Assembly: GCA_051294375.1 (NCBI GenBank) | Contig: CM119265.1 | Location: 469,133-481,386, forward strand | Source of the DNA: Paraspadella gotoi | Lineage: Eukaryota; Animalia; Chaetognatha | Reading direction: 5' to 3' | Length of the DNA: 12,254 nt | In this document: positions 1 to 12,252 of the stretch, in pieces | How positions within the stretch are numbered: the first letter of the stretch is position 1 | Layout: every line of letters begins with the position of its first letter | Program-made: the position numbers and the translations under genes | The notes under the pieces: model-generated | Told to the model about the DNA's origin: nothing | Seen by the model: the letters and a program-made list of their open reading frames with translations, nothing else | Database searches by the model: none

Positions 1-1350
1 GTTAACGCCCTGCTCCTTCCTCGGTCCGCCTATCTCGTGGACGCCGACGGCGTCATCATCGATTTGCCGCAGAAGCTCCATGACGCCCTCGACAGCAAAA
101 AGCCACTGTCGCCGAAGGAGGTGAACGCTGCCTTCAAGGACACCCTGCGCATCGTCAACGACTCCGCAAGGGAAATAGCAAACGTCAAGAGCCTCCTACG
201 ACAGCAGACGGCCCGCATCGATACGGTCGTCGCCTCAGTGAATGACGCGAACGCCGCCGTTACCTTGATCAACGCAAAGTTCGACGCCGCTTTCACTGAC
301 CTGAAAGCGATATTCTTAGGCGGCTCCGCNNNNNNNNNNNNNNNNNNNNNNNNNCGCCCCCGACCATACGCTCCGCCCCGTGGCCGTGCCCACGTCAACC
401 ACGACCGCCTCCACCTTAGTGGAACCGCCCAGAAGGCTCTCCGGCCAAGCAATCAAGCTGGAAAAACGCCGCGCGGATGAGAAACCTGAAGAGTTCCTCA
501 TGGGAGTATACAAAACCCTACGCGATTGCGGCGAAGACCCAAAGATCGATGATCAACTCAAGGCCCTTCTCGCCCGCGATGAGGAAGCCAGTGTGTTCAT
601 CGACCCGATAGACGGCAGTCTCTGGCGCGGCCTAAAAGAAATGTGCGAGTCAACGTCGGTTGGGATCTTAGAAGCCTCGGCTAGTATCTCCGTAGTCGTC
701 GACCCCGTCGTCCACTCCAAATTCGGTCTAGCGTTAGTAAACACGGTTTACCGCCACTTCGACTATGTCGCCCGGAAGAACGCCCGGCGATCGCCCGTCA
801 TGTCGCACGCCTACTCACCACGGCGCTGGAACCTTACGCTCCGGGAATCACGGCAGAATCAATGAAGTTCCGCCGCCTTATCGCCGACGGAAATCGACGC
901 GAACTCGGCTCTATCATCGAATGGAAATTGCGCGGCTACCTGAATTCCCGCGGAATGGATGCCTCGTCCCGCCGATTCATCAACTCGGTAAAAGAAGACG
1001 ACCGCCAAGTACTCACGGACTCCCTCCTGAAGAAGGGCCTGTCGGACAAAGATCCCGGCGACAGCGCCAACGCCCTTTACCAAGGCACAATGGTGCAGGA
1101 AGCAAACAACCAAAGGGAGCTCCTGGAAAAGATGGCAAAATCTATGGCAAAGATGGAAAAGGCGATGGCTGAGTCCCGTTCAGCTGAAGAACGGAAATGG
1201 AAACCAGCGCCCTCTCGTGAATTCCGCCGCGAGGACCGCCGCACTGACCGAAGAAATTTTGGCGAGGACAGCCGCTGGACAAACAGGCGTAAAGAACAAC
1301 CTCGAAATGGTAGAACGGGCAGATTTGAAGCGAAGAGGCGTGATTTTCTT
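1..1350 (+). CDS. gag: Gag-like region (fragmented: frame open from base 1, N gap, ORF 380..865, start of ORF 862..2046)
   Basis: Located upstream of the protease; N-terminal coiled-coil-like segment (AREIANVKSLLRQQTARIDTVVASV), helical capsid-like middle, Arg-rich basic segment (REFRREDRRTDRR...GRTGRFEAKRR). No CCHC knuckle. Assignment is mainly positional. Confidence 0.6.
330..354. other. Assembly gap (25 N)
   Basis: Run of 25 N. Confidence 0.99.
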
Positions 1351-2162
1351 GTTGACGCTGACGACGATGATGACATTATTGCTGTGAAAAATAAAAACTG
1401 TGAAAATTACAAATCGTTTTCAGAAGAAAGGGAACAGACAGAACAAAATGTCAAAAGACAAAACAAAATGGCCGAGCTAGCAAAGGAGATGGCCATTAGA
1501 TTACAGAAACTGACTGAAAAGCTCCCTCCGATAAAAAGGATGCCACCCTTAGACGACATCGCGACAAACGCACTGTTGCTAGGCGGTCACAGTGCCCCTA
1601 GCCGAATACGTAAGTTGTTCACACCTTTAAAAACAGTCGCAAAATGCGCCTTAGTTACGGAAATGGCACAAAAAGCAGCTGAAATATGGCCTTCTGCCAA
1701 GGAAGGGAGGAGAAGAGCAATAGTGAAAAGGATCAGATTCTGTGAGAAGCTCTGTACCCCTCCGCCGGAGATTACAGCAACTGTAGAGAAACCGGAAACC
1801 CCTCGTCAAGACGCCGACGCGCTGGCCCGCCTGAGGCAAAAGCCGTCGATGCCACGTCGTGCGTGGCACCGTCTCCGTCCGTCTCCGCACGCACAATCCG
1901 TGCGATGCCGCCGTCTGCTTTACAACCCTACCTACGAGATAGTCGGCACCAGGGATGGCGAGTCTCTGCACAAGGCCACAGTTGACCGAGCTGAAAGAGA
2001 ATGCCATGAGCCAGAAGTATACCCGGCGCCACCTTCGCCCCAATAACCTCCAAAGACGAGGTTCCGCTTCCGCCGCTTCCGGATGCCCCGGTTACGAGCC
2101 CGGCGGCCCCAGGTCCTCCGCCGCCTCGGGACGACACAAATCGCCCAATTGCTTCCGCAAGA
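1351..2162 (+). CDS. Gag-Pol spacer of unknown function (rest of ORF 862..2046 plus Pro-rich linker in the protease frame)
   Basis: ORF 862..2046 stays open; the protease frame is open from 2010 (after TGA 2007-2009) and reads ITSKDEVPLPPLPDAPVTSPAAPGPPPP into the protease. Confidence 0.5.
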
Positions 2163-2435
2163 AACAATTATATTCCAGCGGTTATCAACGGTGCACCCGC
2201 TAGTTGCCTTTACGACACGGGCGCCTCCATAAACACGATTCCCAGTCGTTACGTAGATGAATGGTCGCTCCGCGACAAAATCACCCAAGGCCCGCCGATT
2301 CGAGTCACCACAGGAAATGGAATCGTATTCGTCCGTGATCGCCTAAAGCTAAAAGTCATGTTTCAAAACTGGACCTTAGACACTACCTTTTTTGTGTCCC
2401 CAGACGAAGAAGACCGAGACGTTGTCATCGGCACA
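2163..2435 (+). CDS. pol: Retropepsin-type aspartic protease domain of Pol
   Basis: The frame of ORF 2358..2765 extended upstream reads NNYIPAVINGAPASCLYDTGASINTI...RVTTGNG...DVVIGT. Catalytic DTG at 2214-2222, plus flap and terminal IG motif. Confidence 0.92.
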
Positions 2436-3079
2436 GCAACCACAGACCCAGGCCCACCTCATGAGCTATGGGTCGTCACCCCGTCGGAAAGTGGTCTCCA
2501 AGTCGCCCACATGGCAGGAAAACCAATTACTCACCTCCTCAAAAGAAACAAGCGGCGCTCCGCGCCGCCAGATGGCTGGCCCGTCAATCCGTCGATGCCA
2601 TTTCTGCCATCCCTCTTTTCGCCGAAGCACAAACCCCAGGTCGAGTTTTGGTTAGAGCGGCGAGAGTATATTGGAAAACACTCGCAGATGCGAAATGGAT
2701 CATCGAATCATCAGGCAAGGACGCCGCCTGCTCAGTCGACGGAGCAAACCTCCGCTCAGGCGTAAACCTCCCTGGAACGCCTGGTCGATGGGGCAGCGCA
2801 AAGATCATCATCACAGAAGAGGCCCAGAAACGACTCCAGCTCCCGCCTCAGACACAGCGAAACCAGTCACTGCCGACCTGTCGGGTGAGAAACCAAAATT
2901 AAGGAAAATTAGAAAAACTGATATTCCGCCAACGAAAATAGTAAAACACTCACCCTCAGACACAGAGCTGAGAGCAGTAGAAGAAGCGCGCGACAGACGT
3001 AGACAAAAACATGACGAGCGCGGGAAAGAGGAATTCCTCAGACCGTTTAAGGAGATAGACCCGTCCCTCGCCGACAAAG

Positions 3080-4115
3080 CCCCCATCGTATGGGAGGCCG
3101 TATGGGATTTCCGCGACGTTTTCGGCGATTCCATAAACGACTGCAAAGAAGGTTTTCTAAATTACAAGGTAGATCTAGGCTTCACCATGGATGACTTGCC
3201 TAAGCCACGTTTTGTAAACCAAGGCCCCGTCAAAAAAGCCGCCTTAAAAAGATACCTGGAAGTTTATGAAAAAGCTGGCGTCGTCTCCAGGACATCAGGT
3301 GAGGCTTATTCAAATGCTTTCCTCATAAAGAAGCCAAACCACATCAGCCAAGGGCAAGACAATATGGATGACGAGACTTTCGCGAAACAGTGGCGCTTGA
3401 TCTGCGATTTATCCGCGGTAAATGAAAACATATCGACCTACGCCACAGAACCACAAACGATCTCGGCCATCTTAGAGGAATACAAGCCTCACGAACTCCA
3501 ATGCTCGGTAGACATCCTTGCCTGCTTTCACCAAGTAAACCTGACTGACAACTGTAAACCCATCACCCCTTCGCAGGAGCAGGACATAACTGGGAGATGA
3601 ATAAATTGCCAATGGGCGGAATAAACAGCATAAACGTCCTCCAAGCCATCCTCGATGAAATATTCGCAGACCTCGGCAGAGATGTAAAATCTTTTCTCAT
3701 TTACGTCGATGACCTCATCCTCACAGCTAAAGATCCGGAAGAGATGGCACTCAGACTCCGCGAATTTTTGTCAATTTGTAGAAGAGAAAACGTCGTCCTA
3801 AAGTGGACGAAAAGTGTACTGTTGAGAAAGGACGACATCAAAATACTGGGGTTTAGTATTTCCAAGGATAAATTAAAACCCCAACGTGAAAAGATGGAAC
3901 AGGCCGAACTCAAGTTAAAAGAGTTGAAATCCCAGAAGGACCTACGAGCTCTCCTTGCCTCTCTCAACTACTACCGGTGCTTCACTCACCGCTTTTCCTA
4001 CCTCGCGCAACCACTCCACGCCCTCACCCTGCTTGATAGAAAAGACTTTAAGTTCACCGACGCCCATCGAGCGAGCCTAAACACGTTAATAACTGAAATT
4101 AAATCACCCCAGGCT
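3080..4115 (+). CDS. pol: Reverse transcriptase (split by 1-nt frameshift near 3567)
   Basis: YSNAFLIKKP, WRLICDLSAVN, SVDILACFHQV, (TAF)AGAGHNWEMNKLPMG, IYVDDLI (YVDD 3702-3713), ILGFSI, LNYYRCF: Gypsy RT palm and thumb motifs. Confidence 0.96.
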
Positions 4116-4149
4116 TAAACTTTTTAAACGATGCAAAAATTAAGAATGG

Positions 4150-4526
4150 AGAATACCGTATATATGCTGAGCCAGCACTAGCGCCATGGGCGGCCTCATC
4201 ACAGCCACAGCTGATGGCGTGGAATACCCTTTGTGCTTCCACTCGAAATCCTTCCCCGACGAATACCGCCTCAAACACATAAACATCCTAGAAACTCTCG
4301 CTTTCAACATGATGGTCAGACGCTTTAAGGGATACATATGTGGAAGAAGAGTATCGCTAATTACAGACTCTCAATACTTTAAACGCATCATGGATCTACA
4401 ACATGATAAACAACAGCTCCTACCACCAACGTCCTTCGCTGGATCACGGAAATCCGGCAAGAATGCCACCCACAGGAGATCATACTAGTGAAAAGCGAGG
4501 ATAACCCCGCAGATTTCCTTACCCGC
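4150..4526 (+). CDS. pol: RNase H domain of Pol (frameshifted)
   Basis: Across 1-nt indels: YRIYA(D)ASTSAMGG, FHSKSF, ILETLAF, LITDSQ, LRWITEI, KSEDNPADFLTR: the D-E-D...D RNase H pattern of Gypsy elements. Confidence 0.9.
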
Positions 4527-4639
4527 TTCACTGATCAAGGACAGATCACGCCGCTCGACACCCCCTTTTGGCCAGCAGGATTTGATTGTACAGGACCTAC
4601 GTTCCCGGCTTCTCAGAGTGCCCAATATCCGGAGCGTCG

Positions 4640-5035
4640 TGGCCGGGTCATCTTGAGCTCCACACCGGCGGCGCTCCAACGATAGCCCTCGTCGCCGCCA
4701 CGCTAGGTGTCGATGAAAAATCTTTTCGAAAGAAATTTTTCGAATTTGTACGAAAAGAATTTCCCCAGCGCCAAGCAAACGCCGAACGTTTGTACGGAAA
4801 ACCGAAAACGAAAAATGCAGACGCCTTCATCCGGACGATTTCAGCAAAAGACTGGAACCTGGGACATCCCGAACTCGAATTGCTGGCGGAGATGTCCGGT
4901 ATCTGCATTAAAATATTAGATGAGGATTTCACAGTGCCATCAGGCTGCAAATTCGTTAAAACTTATGGGGAAGAAACAAACCGAACACTCCAGATTTTCG
5001 CACGCTAACGGGTCAGGTCTCCCTCATTCAGGACT
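4640..5035 (+). CDS. OTU-like (ovarian tumour cysteine protease fold) domain inserted in Pol
   Basis: ORF 4586..5008: ALVAATLG...FRKKFFEFVR...FIRTISAKDWNLGHPELELLAEMSGICIKIL...YGE...LQIF, then after a shift HANGSGLPH (His 5025-5027). Matches the OTU layout; the catalytic Cys is not recoverable in frame. Confidence 0.55.
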
Positions 5036-5145
5036 CCCCTCCCGATGCATACCTCCGCGCACTCGCCGGACAAGAAGAATCCGGCGACGAGACCGACGAC
5101 GCCATCGTCGTTACAATAGCGGAGCTCGAGCGACTGAAAAAGGCC

Positions 5146-5169
5146 CCAAAGAAGCGAGGTCGACCAAAA
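5146..5169 (+). other. AT-hook motif (PKKRGRPK) in Pol linker
   Basis: cca aag aag cga ggt cga cca aaa in a frame open from at least 4981 to 5355 that the ORF track does not list; RGRP core flanked by K residues. Confidence 0.65.
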
Positions 5170-5644
5170 ACAATCAAAGCCAAACAAATTGCGGCCGCGA
5201 ATCTCCCTCGAGACACCGTCCTTATTAAATTCAACCCACTTCCGGATGACGAGGAAAACAATGAAAACAGCGAAGAGGCGGCCCCGCTGCCATCACCGCC
5301 CCGCGCCGGCCCTCCGCCTTGCTACAGGACTCGTCACCGCCCTCTCACCAGACCCTAACGCAGCGAGAACCGATATCATCCCAGCCGCCCGCCGCTGGCC
5401 CGCCACGAGGCATCACCGACGACCCCGTCGACCCTCGCCGCACCGCGGGGCCGCCGGCGTCGCCGACCCCGCCATCGGCGAAAAATGACGGCTCGCCTAC
5501 GCCTCGCCCGTCCCAAGTGCCGGATCGGCCAGGAACTCCCCCGCGCAGGATGAAGAGCTTGCTTACGACTCCGCCATCGACGCCTCTCTTGACGTTGACG
5601 CCCGCGATCTCGAAGCCGAGCTCCACGACCCGCTCGATCGCGAC

Positions 5645-6958
5645 GTGCGTCTCCTCCCCCTCCGCTCCAACGTGAAATCCTGGCAACAAAATGAGGAAAC
5701 CATCAAATCCGTTGCAACTATTCTCGCGCACCATGGCACCGACGCCGTCAAGGCCCACTTCCGATCCATCCAAGCCAAGGCGCTAACGAAAATGCAAGCC
5801 TTCCTCGCCGCCATCGCAGATGACTTATCTGTCTCAAACGACGGAATCCTCTGCGTAATCGGTTTCCGCGATGAAACAAGAACTTCGAGATTCATTGTCC
5901 CACAAGACAAATTAAGTGACATAATTCGCCGGATCCATGACTACGTTGGCCACCCAGGGCGCGATCGGACCGCCTACATTGTCGCACAGTACGTGGCGGC
6001 GCCCGGCCTCGTCGCCATGTGCTCAAAAGTCGTCCTAAGCTGCGAACCATGCCGCAAAGCCACCGACGAAATGAGGTTCAACGAAACGGAACCAGGCCCA
6101 ACGCATGCGCTAATCCCTTGGGAGTCCTTGTGTATCGACGTCATGCACCTGCCTCCCAGTGGCGGCTTCCAACACGTCCTCGTTGCATCCGATAAAGCTT
6201 CCGCCTACACGTGGGCGTTGCCGATCCGCCGCGCAGACGCCGCCCATATCATCGGAGCACTCGACAAGGCATCTTCTCCCTTCACGGCTCCTTTCTGGAA
6301 ATAAATTTTGACGGGCAACTTCGCTAAACGGCGCCGAGATGCGCAGCATACTGGATCTACTCAACATGAGCGGGAAGCGTGTCCTCGTCTCGAGAAAGAA
6401 CAGCAACCGCGCAGAGAGAGACATTGGGCGCATCCGACAAGCCCTCAGAAAGGCGCTAAATGACGACCCAAACGGTTGGCTCCCCTCGCTGCCTCACCTC
6501 CTCTTAGCGCTAAACGCCACGCCCATTTCCGGTTGGAAAACTGACATGTCACCTCACGAGCTCCAATTCGCCCACCGACCAAGGATCATCGAACCTCCAG
6601 ACGAAACTCTGTACTCGTCGCTCACCGAGTTCGCCAAACAACGCTCAGATAGACAGGACCACGCCCACGAACGCGTCGCAGCGCAGCGAATCGGCCGCCA
6701 CCGATACACGCACAGGAATAATCGCCTGCGACACCCGAAGCGACTCTCAGTGGGAGACCTCGTGTATGTCCGACGCGACCTCGTCCGCACGGGCGCCGCC
6801 CCCAGCGCGAGCAAGGTAAAATCGGTTTACACCGGTCCACATAAAATCGTCCAGATCGACGGAAACCACTTTAAAGTGGACGTTGGAGGCGCCATTTCGT
6901 TTATCACCGTCGCCGCCTGAAAGCAGTCGATCGCGATTCACAAACTTTCTCTTACTAA
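5645..6958 (+). CDS. pol: Integrase (HHCC zinc finger, DDE core, GPY/F-like C-terminus), frameshifted
   Basis: HDYVGH (5936-5953)...CEPC (6041); CIDVM (D 6137); INFDG (D 6310, alternate frame); NRAER (E 6414); YTGPHKI; after a final shift YHRRRLKAV...stop TAA 6956-6958. No chromodomain seen. Confidence 0.95.
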
Positions 6959-7022
6959 AAGCGTCACCGGCAAATCCTCAAACAGCGAAAGGAAAGCAGA
7001 TAAGAAATGTACAGCAAATCTA

Positions 7023-7069
7023 TCTCTCTCTCTCTCTCTCTCCCTCTCTCCCTCTCTCTCCCTCTCCCC
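7023..7069 (+). repeat. (CT)n-like polypyrimidine tract
   Basis: tctctctctctctctctctccctctctccctctctctccctctcccc. Confidence 0.95.
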
Positions 7070-7070
7070 A

Positions 7071-7077
7071 CTTTCAG
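7071..7077 (+). promoter_or_regulatory. Candidate 3' splice acceptor for an env mRNA
   Basis: CTTTCAG directly after a ~47-nt pyrimidine tract; the next downstream ATG is the env start at 7334. Confidence 0.4.
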
Positions 7078-7216
7078 CCGAACCCTCATCTCTCCTCTTA
7101 ACGCTCAACTCTGACCCACTTTTCCACGAGATACTCTCGCGGCCGGGAAGGGGGTAAGATCCATCAAGCTCTCGCCCCGGCTTATCACTTGCCGGCTGTT
7201 ATCTCAACAACTTTTC

Positions 7217-7239
7217 AAAAAAAAAAAAAAAAAAAAAAA
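7217..7239 (+). repeat. Poly(A) run starting an A-rich leader upstream of env
   Basis: Homopolymer of ~23 A followed by A-rich sequence up to 7333. Confidence 0.9.
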
Positions 7240-7333
7240 GAAACAAAGAGGAAAGATAAATAAGCAAATACAAAAGTTATCGTAAAAACATTTCCAAACA
7301 AAGAAAAGAAAGAAAAGGATTTTCAAAGGAAAA

Positions 7334-8750
7334 ATGTCGATTACTAAAATCCTCGCCATCGCTCTAATCATCGCGAGTATCCACCTACTCGAAACCAACG
7401 CCACCTTACCTTTCGATCGAAAAGTTATCCTGGCAAAAATGAGCTACAGAGACAAGTAGTAGTTTACGACTGCAATCAAACATCTGATCACGCCGCCGTA
7501 GCGATAGACGAAGGAAAATGCGAAGAAGCGGGAAAAGTCGAAGAAAGCTTCAGAGAAATAAAAATTATCTATGTGCCGAAAAATTCAGAAACGACGTCAA
7601 AGGCTGCGATCTCACCATCGTCGCCACGGGGAAATACTGTGGCAGATGGTCAATAACCTATCCAAACATCGACGTCATCGATCATTTTTCCATCCGCGAA
7701 GCCAATGTCTAGATCTGCACGCTGGACGAACCATCTCGCTCGACTCCATCCCGATACGCACGTCTGATGACACGGGAGTCTTCCGCCCCATTCGAATGCG
7801 CGGCGCCATGGGAACAATATCGTCACCCATAGGATCGGCACAAACGACGCGGACGGCGCCTGTACAGGGGAAAAATTCAAATTTCATGATCACGCGTATG
7901 AGAGTGAAAACGCAAAACTAATCTCGAACTTAACGCTATATTCGCTCCAAGGTGAAGATCAGCGGAGATGAAACCTCAAAGAACGGCCGCTGCAACCTTC
8001 GCCCAGCGCCAATGTGTTTACCCGGGCGGCATTCTTTGCCTGGGACGACAGCGGCTGCAGGGCGAAGATTGCTTACGAGGGAGGAATATTTCAAAGTCAT
8101 GACGGTTTCATCCGGACGCCAACGCTAGCAGACAGGCGTCGCGCGCTAGGCAAATGCGCGCCGGCCGAAGGAACCCCTTGCAACGATAACAACATCGCCT
8201 CTTTCGCTGGCAAGCCAGGCTGCTGGTCCCGCTGCGCCATTTTCCTCCACCGAAACAACAACGCAGGCGATCACGCGGAAACCATCGAACGCTGTCGCAT
8301 CGCCTGCGCCCCGCTTCCAAGCGGCGCCTTCACCCTCCGCATCGCAGGCAAAGAAGAAACACTTCGTGGCTGCAGGTCCCGCGCGGCGGCCACCTCGTCG
8401 CCGCATTTCTTTGTGACGTCACAAAGTGCCTCAACGTCGCTCGACGTCGATCCTTCAACACTCAGTTCGCTAGTCGAAATATCATCGAGGCTCGCTGAAC
8501 GCAACCAAGACCGCCTCGACCGACTCACGGACGCCCTGCGCCGCGATTGTGCGTTGCAAAAAACGCAAGCGGCGAGATTGCCGCCGAACGCGCCACCTCT
8601 CGCCCGCCTCCACTACCTTCATTGGCAAAGGCCAATGGCGATCCTCCAGGGGAACTCCTCCTGACGGCGACGTGCGAGCGCACGCTGGCGCTGCGCCGCC
8701 AAACGGACGGCTGTTTACCACGATCTCCCCATTAGCTACAAGGGGTCACG
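7334..8750 (+). CDS. env: Env-like class III fusion glycoprotein (chuvirus G / herpes gB-like), frameshifted, C-terminus missing
   Basis: ATG 7334 gives signal peptide MSITKILAIALIIASIHLLETNA. Stitched frames give VYDCNQT (7465-7473), GKC, GCDLTIVATGKYCGRWS, QCLDLHAG, GTNDADGACTG, GRCNL..QC..FAWDDSGCRAKIAYEG, FTLR...GC...TSSPHFFV, long helix ending RRDCALQK, GELLLTATCER...DGC(Y)HDLPI. N-glycosylation sequons NQT and NLT. No TM segment before the break. Confidence 0.8.
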
Positions 8751-8893
8751 CCGCGTTCCGCATGCCGTGTTCCATCATGTGGTAAATGTCGTCGGGTTTT
8801 AGCTTGGCATGAGATAAAAGGTTAGGGTTAGGGCAAAAAAAATGGCCTGCTGTAAATCATCGCAGAGGAATCAAGACTCCAGAATCGAAATCG

Positions 8894-8939: not shown

Positions 8940-9075
8940 AACGTTGTGCGCCACGCTCAACCCACGAGATCCGCACTCCGCCTTAGGTTGGAAAATAACC
9001 GCCCAGAAACGGTCTCTCCGGCCAGCAATTAAGCTGGGTAAAAACGCCGCGCGGATGAGAAACCTTGGAAAGACG
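8940..9075 (+). repeat. Insertion-riddled second copy of gag segment ~380-500
   Basis: Shares accgcccagaa, ctctccggcca, aagctgg, aaaaacgccgcgcggatgagaaacct with 424-487, with extra inserted bases. Confidence 0.85.
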
Positions 9076-9165: not shown

Positions 9166-9365
9166 GCACGCCGCGCGTAACTCTGTGTGTCATCTTGGTG
9201 TAGGGTTAAATATACTTTCAGAGTGGTTAAGGTATTTTTAGAATCTCCTTGGATCACTAGAGATAAAAAGTGGTGTAGGAGCCTTAGCGCGCAAAAAAAT
9301 CAATGGCCTGCCTTCACAAATCACTTCGCAGAGAATAGCAAGACTTCCAAGGCAATCGAAACTCG
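9166..9365 (+). repeat. Noisy duplicate of 8746-8893
   Basis: Collinear shared words cacgccgcg, gagataaaa, gcaaaaaaa, aatggcctgc, aaatca, tcgcagag, caagact, aatcgaaa. Confidence 0.75.
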
Positions 9366-9731
9366 GGATCGCCGACGTTCTCGCGCGCAGCGCAAAATCT
9401 CCGCCCGGAGGGAAGTAGAATGGAACAATTCCTCATTTGGTCTGATAAAGACCAATTAAATACAGATGTCACAATGGGCAGATGGCGACTTCTTTCCGGC
9501 TGATAAACTTACCCTTACTGCCGGATTCCGATTTCGCAGGGGGTATTAAATAAGGAACCCAATCTTGTAATTGATTTAACATTTCCTGGCCTCAAGACAA
9601 TTGACACCGTTTGTATATATTGTTCTGTAATTCTGAAGAAACTAAAAATCTCATCTTTTGGGATTTCCCGTAGAAATTCCCTGTCTATTTTACTTAATTT
9701 GTCCGGACAGGTCGGGCACAGGCTGGGATTC

Positions 9732-10614: not shown

Positions 10615-12252
10615 TTACAAANNNNNNNNNNATCTAGGCTTAGGCCTGACAGCGGGGATTTTGTTTTCTGTTTTTGTGGCGTTGTTGTTTTTTGTTTCTG
10701 TGTCATTAGAGTTAATGTTATTGTTTTCCCCCGCTTGGCGTTTTATCAACTCTTTCAGAACAATGGCGTAGGTCGGGCGATAAGGCTTATTCGAAAAGTT
10801 CTCCGGTGTTGGCCTCGAAAACCTACACGTTGGCTCAATTCTCAGGTTTTCGTTATCGCTCGGTTGAGCTTGTTCTTTAAGCGAATGAGTCGAATTGCTT
10901 GTCGATCGATTTGGCGGTGTTGCTGGAGGCCTAGGTTCCTGAAATGATGGGAGTGGGTCGGGGGGGGGTTGGGGTAGAGGGGAGGAGGGTGAAGGAAGCG
11001 GAGGAGGAATCGACGGAGGAGGAGAGGCCGCTCTCAGGTGCTGCCTATGAGTAGTCGATAGATCTGAAACTTGATTTTTCGATCGAGTAGTTCTTGAAGT
11101 TTGAGGCGGGTTTCTTGTTCTCGGTCCTGGTCGGCGGCCTGGTGGTCTCTCTTCGCGCGGTTCTGGGTCATCAATTTGCCTGTCGTCCTCGCTGACCCAG
11201 GCTGGCTTGACCCTGGCGATATTGACGGTTTCGTGGCCTTTGCTGGGGATGTCGATCGTCATGTTGATGTTGTTGCGGTGTACAACCCGGTAGGGACCTT
11301 CATAGGGGGGAACAAGAGGAGGATTAACGCCGGCCCTTTTAACGAATACATACTTGGCTGTATTTAAGTTTGCAGGTATGTGAATCGCCGGTTGTCGATG
11401 GGCCGATGTCTGAGTAGGCTGGAGTCTTGCTACTTCCACCCGGAGTCTTGAAAGTTGTGCTCTTCTTTGTCGATTGAGGTTTTCGTCGTTGACTTGGGCG
11501 TCACCTAGCATTGAGCCTGGGACGCCAATTCCTTCGCCGAAGACCAGATCAGCTGATGACGCTCCAATGTCTTCCTTCACTGTTGTTCTTATTGCGAGTA
11601 GTGTGAGAGGCAATTTCCAGAACCAATTTTGTTTTTCATCGTTTGCTAGCGCCATTAGGGATTCCTTGAGCCTTCGATGAAATCTCTCTACCATCCCATT
11701 GGATTGTGGATGGTAAGCTGTTGTTGTCTGGTTCTTTATGCCCCAGGTTTTGGTCAGCTGTTGCCATAGATTTGAGGTAAATTGACTACCTCTGTCCGTT
11801 GTTATCACAGATGGAGTCCCGAAGATACTAATCCAATTTAGGCTTAGTGCATCTAGGATGGTCGGGGTTAGAGTATCTTGCAGAGGTATTGCGGCCGGCC
11901 AACGCGAGAATCTGTCAACTATTGTCAACAGATGTGAGAATCCGTTGGATTTGGGCATCTTGACGAGGTCGATGTTGAGATGCTGGAATCTCCGCGCTGG
12001 AACCTTGAAGTCGCCTATCTCTGGGACGGTATGCTTAGAGACCTTGGCGCGCTGGCAGTCTAGACAATCTCTTGCCCAGCGGGAGACGTCTTGGCGCATC
12101 CCGGTCCACACAAACTTGGCGGCGACGGCTTTCCGTGTGGCCTCGACTCCCGGATGGCCGAGGCCATGGATAACGTCGAAGATTTTGCGCCGCCATGAAT
12201 TTGGAACGAATGGGCGTGCCGGTCCATTGGATATGTCCGCGAGCAGTTCCTG
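10615..12252 (-). CDS. pol: Pol C-terminus: Gypsy integrase (CsRN1-like) with Pro-rich tail; ORF continues beyond the window
   Basis: Frame open to the window edge: DISNGPARPFVP..RRKIFDVIHGLGHPG...KFVW...CLDCQRAK, HLNIDLV, DRFSRWPAAIP, TTDRGSQF, YHPQSNGMVER, YEGPYRV. The stop position lies just past a 10-N gap, so it is uncertain. Confidence 0.96.
   Translation of the reverse strand, partial: QELLADISNGPARPFVPNSWRRKIFDVIHGLGHPGVEATRKAVAAKFVWTGMRQDVSRWARDCLDCQRAKVSKHTVPEIGDFKVPARRFQHLNIDLVKMPKSNGFSHLLTIVDRFSRWPAAIPLQDTLTPTILDALSLNWISIFGTPSVITTDRGSQFTSNLWQQLTKTWGIKNQTTTAYHPQSNGMVERFHRRLKESLMALANDEKQNWFWKLPLTLLAIRTTVKEDIGASSADLVFGEGIGVPGSMLGDAQVNDENLNRQRRAQLSRLRVEVARLQPTQTSAHRQPAIHIPANLNTAKYVFVKRAGVNPPLVPPYEGPYRVVHRNNINMTIDIPSKGHETVNIARVKPAWVSEDDRQIDDPEPREERPPGRRPGPRTRNPPQTSRTTRSKNQVSDLSTTHRQHLRAASPPPSIPPPLPSPSSPLPQPPPDPLPSFQEPRPPATPPNRSTSNSTHSLKEQAQPSDNENLRIEPTCRFSRPTPENFSNKPYRPTYAIVLKELIKRQAGENNNINSNDTETKNNNATKTENKIPAVRPKPRXXXXL
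10622..10631. other. Assembly gap (10 N)
   Basis: Run of 10 N. Confidence 0.99.

What the first reader, a model, noticed from the sequence alone, without database searches (positions are those of the whole stretch)
7334..8750. Hidden env: chuvirus-G/gB-like class III fusogen downstream of a Gypsy integrase
Seen: the ORF track shows only fragments, but an unlisted 41-codon ORF at 7334-7459 encodes a signal peptide, and stitching frames gives an ordered series YDC...C...YCGxxS...C...GxxxxDGxCxG...C..C..W...C...YEG...FxL...C...T..P...helix-C...GE....C......CYxxLP. Known: this order resembles chuvirus glycoproteins; gB/chuvirus-like envs are known from BEL/Pao elements (Ascaris Tas, mosquito Anakin). 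Inference: a class III fusogen captured by a Gypsy-order element.
Basis: partly seen in the sequence, partly recalled or inferred. Interest (0 to 1): 0.8.

Follow-up and report, generated by a model that had tools for sequence, protein, structure and literature searches.

The report
Herpes-type envelope gene in Gypsy retroelement
A Ty3/gypsy retrotransposon of a likely animal genome carries, behind its integrase, a gene related to chuvirus glycoproteins and likely to herpesvirus gB fusion proteins; its apparent breaks are likely sequencing errors, so it likely serves as an envelope as already published for other invertebrates, and its one new feature is an extra six-cysteine segment that likely sticks out from the protein.

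Summary
The pieces at 7334-8785 follow a Ty3/gypsy pol. Read with X at each break they match a profile of 12 natural chuvirus-G-family proteins (21.9 bits, P 2e-9; best of 1000 shuffles 1.3). A blind frameshift-aware alignment agrees. A model of one reference matches herpesvirus gB (E 5e-15). The breaks are likely assembly errors: contigs of 4 public runs differ by a one-letter indel at all 7 frame switches up to 8556. The membrane anchor and both LTRs are outside the window.

New here: a loop of 96 residues with six cysteines where 11 references have 31-39 residues and 0-1. The scan had not noted this env on other DNA.

The parts
356..2046 (+). gag-like ORF, one frame break near 772; may begin in 1-329 before the N gap
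   Evidence: Position before the protease and long open frames; no Pfam gag hit, so the name is inferred; one-letter indel in public contigs at 772 in 3 of 4 runs, the fourth has no cover there
2172..2435 (+). aspartic protease
   Evidence: PF13650 E 8e-7, PF13975 E 1e-6
3597..3860 (+). reverse transcriptase, YVDD half (the domain starts upstream, across a break near 3567)
   Evidence: PF00078 E 4e-10; break
4171..4413 (+). RNase H of Ty3/gypsy type
   Evidence: PF17917 E 3e-8, PF17919 E 6e-6
4598..5896 (+). long RNase H-integrase bridge of unknown content
   Evidence: Open frames; no family hit of note; OTU test not significant
5897..6917 (+). integrase: H2C2 finger, core, GPY/F-like motif and weak SH3-like tail
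   Evidence: PF17921 E 3e-10, PF00665 E 9e-4, PF24626 E 0.2; one homologue found, a gastropod polyprotein at 35% over 65% of the query
6921..7333 (+). pol-env spacer with a (CT)n tract (7019-7069) and an A run (~7217-7240)
   Evidence: Sequence; public contigs stop at both repeats
7334..7429 (+). env start: ATG and predicted signal peptide
   Evidence: Hydropathy 3.15; natural family members start alike
7435..8082 (+). env N-terminal ectodomain (predicted fusion domain I and start of domain II); breaks near 7431, 7590, 7693, 7815, 7941, 7998, 8032
   Evidence: Profile positions 15-208 match at 19.1 bits, E 1.5e-8; family cysteines matched at 7471, 7519, 7605, 7638, 7706, 7861, 8056 and YEG at 8074-8082; indels
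8083..8328 (+). enlarged loop with six cysteines (8155, 8179, 8221, 8233, 8293, 8305); net insertion about 60 residues
   Evidence: gap counts of the contig pieces leave no indel between 8033 and 8422; low-confidence helical hairpin
8329..8556 (+). rest of predicted domain II (Cys 8371, Thr 8392), Ser/Thr linker and predicted central helix ending at Cys 8548
   Evidence: helix in the single-sequence model, pLDDT about 54-72; long helix 319-366 in the reference model
8559..8785 (+). predicted crown region (GE at 8649, Cys 8673, Pro 8728); several breaks (8558, 8633, 8647, 8714, 8740 and unlisted ones); the window leaves the gene at 8785
   Evidence: loose ends at 8783-8785 in 3 runs among the rows shown; no hydrophobic anchor in any + frame of 8560-8893

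Best explanation
This is the likely env gene of a Ty3/gypsy retrotransposon (gag-pol-env order); it belongs to the chuvirus-G family, is predicted to have a gB-type class III fusion fold, is likely intact in the organism, and would likely let the element's particles bud with a membrane and fuse into other cells, perhaps germ cells. Shown: family membership by profile, position behind the integrase, one-letter differences of public contigs at the breaks, and the six-cysteine insertion. Inferred: signal-peptide entry into the secretory path, a C-terminal membrane anchor beyond 8785, trimer formation, fusion through domain I loops and refolding about the central helix (recalled for gB, VSV G and gp64), and translation from its own, possibly spliced, message. 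The insertion likely forms a three-disulphide helical module on the surface of domain II, where it may bind a receptor or shield the trimer.
For: X-read-through against the 12-sequence profile: 21.9 bits, P 2.2e-9; best of 1000 shuffles 1.3 bits; 28 of 54 conserved columns identical, with 9 of the 11 conserved cysteine columns matched, one displaced by 4 residues and one at a break. Two non-overlapping sub-profiles (8 virus-collection loci; 4 other proteins) each score 14-15 bits, P 2-5e-7. Blind alignment: 7 of its 9 frameshifts lie within 13 nt of a contig indel, chance 0.00045. 12 of 12 references carry PF24664 (8 scanned precomputed). The AF2 model of one reference (pLDDT 73.7) matches herpesvirus gB in all 36 rows shown, best E 4.7e-15. 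All covering contigs in 4 of 4 runs (3 studies) show a one-letter indel at each of the 7 frame switches up to 8556, and gag-pol shows the same pattern. 8 of 13 letter differences between copies are synonymous and none makes a stop (p 0.004, or 0.037 against a transitions-only expectation). Main-contig depth is alike over pol and env (X1 217 and 217; X4 34 and 40), a weak sign only. Precedent: PMC13524379.
Against: The class III fold was shown for a relative, not for this protein: its own fragment folded poorly (pLDDT 47). Single fragments or single frames gave no relevant hit in Pfam, PDB sequences, a 5.8-billion search or a 1.8-billion search (one spurious repeat protein); hhalign of one frame gave probability 0.9. 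With the first 5-sequence profile the blind score was only 26 against 22, and under the strictest gap setting 27.7 against a shuffle maximum of 25.1. No membrane anchor and no LTR lie in the window. No listed public contig bridges integrase and env; they stop at the spacer repeats, so the link rests on the window's own error-rich assembly. The runs may include the window's source. At 8647, 8714 and 8740 the indel is in only part of the depth in some runs.
Confidence: 0.82

Rival explanations
1. A class III homologue that no longer fuses: a shortened or secreted env kept by the element or host as a decoy or receptor blocker, as proposed for solo chuvirus glycoproteins in mosquitoes.
For: No anchor in the window; a large insertion in the ectodomain; the solo-glycoprotein defence idea in PMC7642597 (passages).
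Against: Public contigs run on past 8785 (253 letters in one), so the cut is likely the window's; family cysteines kept; the gene sits at the usual env place.
Confidence: 0.08
2. An independent endogenised jingchuvirus glycoprotein that lies next to, or was mis-joined to, a Gypsy pol.
For: No listed contig bridges the spacer; the window has three N gaps and a degenerate gag copy at 8946-9065; PMC10084718 finds most insect cases beside fragmentary elements.
Against: Same strand, 413 nt behind the integrase stop; same error pattern and like depth over pol and env in 4 runs; only ~20% identity to virus G proteins; no L or N gene seen nearby.
Confidence: 0.07
3. An unrelated secreted cysteine-rich host protein, or a chance motif series made by free stitching of frames.
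For: No hit for any fragment alone.
Against: The frame switches are fixed independently by contig indels; P 2e-9 with shuffle, reversed and decoy controls.
Confidence: 0.03

Closest known systems
HSV/gB-type ENV of Ty3/gypsy 'errantiviruses' (Chary and Hayashi, eLife 2026, PMC13524379), by eye closest to the Insecta_C1 and Platyhelminthes_C1a groups
   Same: Ty3/gypsy pol followed by an env with a signal peptide; same motif order through domains I-II as the Insecta_C1 rows (supplement file 3, parts 2 and 7, compared by eye).
   Different: Six-cysteine insertion after YEG; the planarian rows have a longer, cysteine-free loop there and the order gag-env-pol. About 1.3 kb bridge between RNase H and integrase. 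Host possibly outside the phyla searched. Parts 3-6 of the sequence sheet were not read.
Jingchuvirus/chuvirus glycoprotein G, Pfam PF24664 Monjiviricetes_fusion
   Same: Significant profile match, conserved cysteines, YEG and GE motifs.
   Different: Only 17.7-23.0% identity; retroelement setting instead of the L-G-N layout seen in L041 and L050; loop of 96 against 31-39 residues.
Anakin, BEL/Pao elements of mosquitoes with chuvirus-like env (PMC7642597)
   Same: Same env family behind an LTR-element pol.
   Different: The carrier here has Ty3/gypsy-type RNase H and integrase profiles and no BEL-type Pfam hit.
Herpesvirus glycoprotein B (e.g. PDB 5v2s)
   Same: Fold of the family, shown through a reference model.
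   Different: About 10% identity to the reference; herpes gB works with gD and gH/gL (PMC13524379, discussion), for which this element shows no gene.

Membership tests
Chuvirus-G / gB-type env family (PF24664-like) | Significant profile match over the ectodomain | tested here: met
   21.9 bits, P 2.2e-9 against an own 12-sequence profile, shuffles at most 1.3; blind alignment. PF24664 itself was not hit by single fragments or frames.
Chuvirus-G / gB-type env family (PF24664-like) | Conserved cysteine scaffold in order | tested here: met
   9 of 11 conserved Cys columns identical, 1 displaced by 4 residues, 1 at a masked break.
Chuvirus-G / gB-type env family (PF24664-like) | N-terminal signal peptide | tested here: met
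   Hydropathy 3.15 over 11 residues from residue 6; no dedicated predictor was on hand.
Chuvirus-G / gB-type env family (PF24664-like) | C-terminal membrane anchor | tested here: inconclusive
   None in the window (highest 19-residue hydropathy 0.96), but the window leaves the gene at 8785, about two thirds along the profile, and contigs run on.
Class III fusion proteins | gB/VSV-G/gp64-type fold | tested here: inconclusive
   Met for a reference of the family (E 4.7e-15); this protein's own fragment gave pLDDT 47 and no match above Z 4.7. Transfer is by homology.
Class III fusion proteins | Trimer formation and membrane fusion | not testable with these tools
   Needs bench work.
Ty3/gypsy (Metaviridae) carrier | PR-RT-RH-IN order with gypsy-type RNase H and H2C2 integrase | tested here: met
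   PF13650, PF00078, PF17917, PF17919, PF17921, PF00665 in that order; no BEL-type Pfam hit. No RT tree was built.
Errantivirus in the operational sense of PMC13524379 | Uninterrupted gag, pol and env | tested here: inconclusive
   Broken in the window; public contigs differ by one-letter indels at the listed breaks (5 and 11 rows not shown). No continuous natural copy was seen.
Errantivirus in the operational sense of PMC13524379 | Flanking LTRs and primer-binding site | tested here: inconclusive
   No LTR pair in the window; both ends run into N gaps or other repeats; no whole genome is held.
OTU-like domain in the pol bridge (side lead) | Profile match to OTU proteins | tested here: inconclusive
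   2.2 bits, P 0.011 against a profile of 24 viral-collection proteins with an OTU-type motif; shuffles reached 6.5; no Pfam hit; the catalytic motif is not seen.

The most novel reading that the evidence does not exclude
A still-working enveloped Ty3/gypsy element of arrow worms, the first env-bearing one in that phylum, whose gB-type fusogen has gained its own three-disulphide receptor-binding module in domain II. That would be a one-protein answer to how gB-type retroelement envs enter cells without the herpesvirus partners gD and gH/gL.
Probability: 0.15. Interest if true: 0.65.

Novelty: new variant of a known kind. Interest (0 to 1): 0.38.

Why it matters
The main claim is right but already in print for many animal phyla, so it would not surprise a specialist. 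Two things add value. How gB-type retroelement envs recognise cells is stated as unknown in PMC13524379, and a discrete cysteine-rich module in an otherwise short loop is a concrete candidate. If the host is an arrow worm, the element fills a phylum gap in the test of whether these envs descended with their hosts, the more so as its motif pattern resembles the insect and planarian type. It also shows that error-rich assemblies hide likely intact env genes from ORF-based surveys.

Tried and rejected
Direct searches with window pieces found nothing relevant: Pfam, NCBIfam, PDB sequences, homologue search, representatives search (25; the single hit is a bacterial-type repeat protein), related loci in viral and metagenome contigs. 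The ESM Atlas gave no answer. Pairwise tblastn with two references gave only weak collinear bits; hhalign with one frame gave probability 0.9. Of the motif-scan loci most were chance matches: 1 of 1, 3 of 35, 0, 8 of 13 (62, one a repeat of L001) and 0 of 21 (63) held family members; two of them (L010, L016) were fragments and were left out of the profile. A Kunitz-like reading of the insertion (recalled spacing) was dropped: no Pfam hit, and the model is helical. The fold search of the low-confidence fragment model gave only generic helical hits (Z at most 4.7), which neither names nor excludes a fold. OTU in the pol bridge was not supported. Expression: no RNA holder listed. No tree was built, as 12 references at ~20% identity cannot give a direction of transfer. 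No complex prediction was run.

Full report
Setting. The window holds a Ty3/gypsy-type element on the + strand: protease, reverse transcriptase, RNase H and integrase in that order, with gypsy-type profiles PF17917, PF17919 and PF17921 and no BEL-type hit. It is divergent: the integrase found one homologue among 666 candidates, a gastropod polyprotein at 35%, and the RT found no related locus in viral or metagenome contigs. A 413-nt spacer with a (CT)n tract and an A run follows, then the finding. No whole genome is held and no LTR pair is in the window.

Observation. The ORF 7334-7459 and the motif series are present. The start is strongly hydrophobic. The pieces are free of stops between the frame switches.

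The breaks are likely assembly errors. Contigs of four public runs from three studies were laid on 6900-8890 (4 of the 9 holders listed). At each of the seven frame switches between 7334 and 8556 (near 7431, 7590, 7693, 7815, 7941, 7998, 8032) every covering contig in all four runs differs from the window by a one-letter indel. Further indels lie at 8558, 8633, 8647, 8714 and 8740, the last three in only part of the depth in some runs, and five rows were not shown. Gag and pol show the same pattern (12 rows shown, 11 not). Of 14 listed letter differences between copies, 13 fall in the in-frame pieces; 8 are synonymous and none makes a stop (p 0.004 against all changes, 0.037 against transitions). 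At 8785 contigs continue with sequence unlike the window's, so the last third of the gene is missing here. Limits: the runs may include the window's source, contigs drop rare variants, and no listed contig bridges the spacer, so the pol-env link rests on the window plus like depth (X1 217 and 217, X4 34 and 40, X2 237-332 and 282, X5 506-654 and 623), which the tool says is no copy number.

Homology test. Window fragments alone found nothing. I therefore fetched natural references by short motif scans and one homologue search: eight virus-collection loci, of which L041 and L050 carry a mononegavirus-type capping domain upstream, and four other proteins. All 12 carry PF24664. Against their profile, a blind frameshift-aware alignment of 7301-8893 scored 27.7, 49.3 and 68.3 bits under three settings, with shuffle maxima 25.1, 24.1 and 29.0 (100 each) and real-DNA control maxima 20.2-23.1 (16 each); without frameshifts it scored 26.6 against 21.2. 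An earlier five-sequence profile gave only 26 against 22. Seven of the nine blind frameshifts lie within 13 nt of a contig indel (chance 0.00045). Read with X at each break, the gene scores 21.9 bits, P 2.2e-9; 372 of 1000 shuffles were reported, the best at 1.3 bits; 28 of 54 conserved columns are identical. Two non-overlapping sub-profiles each score it at P 2-5e-7, and decoy profiles fail. Identity to the references is 17.7-23.0%.

Fold. An AF2 model of reference L041 G (pLDDT 73.7, pTM 0.47) matches herpesvirus gB in every row shown, best E 4.7e-15, TM about 0.4. The window's longest piece folded alone at pLDDT 47 and gave only generic helical matches. So class III is shown for the family and inferred for this protein.

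The insertion. Between the YEG motif and the next conserved cysteine the window has 96 residues with six cysteines; 11 of 12 references cover the stretch, with 31-39 residues and none or one cysteine. The blind alignment places a 60-codon insertion from 8089. The gap counts of the contig pieces leave no indel between 8033 and 8422, so it is in frame and real. It holds two CxxxC pairs on predicted helices (low confidence) and matches no family. The site lies inside the domain I-II block of the published alignments; domain II and surface exposure are inferred from the recalled gB domain order and the hairpin at this place in the reference model. The site is not invariant: planarian rows have a longer, cysteine-free loop there and one tardigrade row has a long insert nearby (by eye).

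Mechanism. Most likely the env is made from its own message, enters the secretory path, is anchored by a helix beyond 8785, trimerises on budding particles and fuses them with target cells, letting the element pass between cells as Drosophila gypsy does (PMC13524379, discussion). Every step after sequence family and position is inferred. The insertion most likely forms a three-disulphide module that binds a receptor or shields the trimer; that is a guess from position and cysteine count.

What is known. PMC13524379 (seen: abstract, passages, sections 6, 7 and 13 whole, first parts of 5 and 9; supplement file 3 parts 1, 2, 7, 8 and 114; term searches of all 7 files and of files 2 and 3) reports gB-type env in Ty3/gypsy elements across animals, says cell entry is unknown, and lists phyla searched without Chaetognatha. 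PMC7642597 (passages) describes Anakin. PMC10084718 (abstract, results) finds such glycoproteins beside Gypsy fragments. PMC2678813 (abstract, passages) reports arrow-worm retrotransposon ESTs and, in the passages seen, no env. PMC12440569 and PMC2836005 (passages) were read for side questions. Searches for an arrow-worm env or chuvirus and for class III env in Gypsy found nothing further; no search was aimed at the insertion itself, figures were not visible, and supplement parts 3-6 were not read.

Host. I did not test this.

Verdict. A real gB-type env of a Gypsy element, likely intact, of a published kind, with one new structural feature and possibly a new host phylum. Interest 0.38.

Noticed in passing
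window 4598-5896: Unusually long bridge between RNase H and integrase: a globular-looking stretch (4598-4993) that resembles an OTU fold by eye but lacks the catalytic motif and does not score, then an AT-hook-like KRGRPK near 5150 (label recalled) and Pro-rich and acidic tracts.
   Followed up: partly
window 8946-9065: Degenerate copy (81% over 121 columns) of the gag-region stretch 386-487, just behind an N gap: a related subfamily or noisy gap fill, not an LTR.
   Followed up: partly
window 8795-8893 and about 9180-9370: Short repeat with TTAGGG-like units and very high contig depth at 8843-8890; the env is cut by, or mis-joined to, this repeat. A looser version seems to recur near 9200-9370 by eye; blastn did not confirm it.
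   Followed up: partly
window 10633-12252 (-): A second Gypsy-type integrase (PF17921 E 2e-16, PF00665 E 3e-17) with a Pro-rich tail, on the other strand, running off the window.
   Followed up: no
window 355-6600: Many contigs at 85-90% identity lie on gag and pol: related subfamilies exist in this organism, useful for testing conservation of the env insertion.
   Followed up: no
L032:320-1951 (also L010, L016): PF24664-family genes with signal peptide in JGI metagenome contigs, partly frame-broken; setting not examined.
   Followed up: no
L044:8-1690 (-): A divergent PF24664 member (E 3e-45) on a 1.7-kb IMG/VR contig from a metagenome data set.
   Followed up: no
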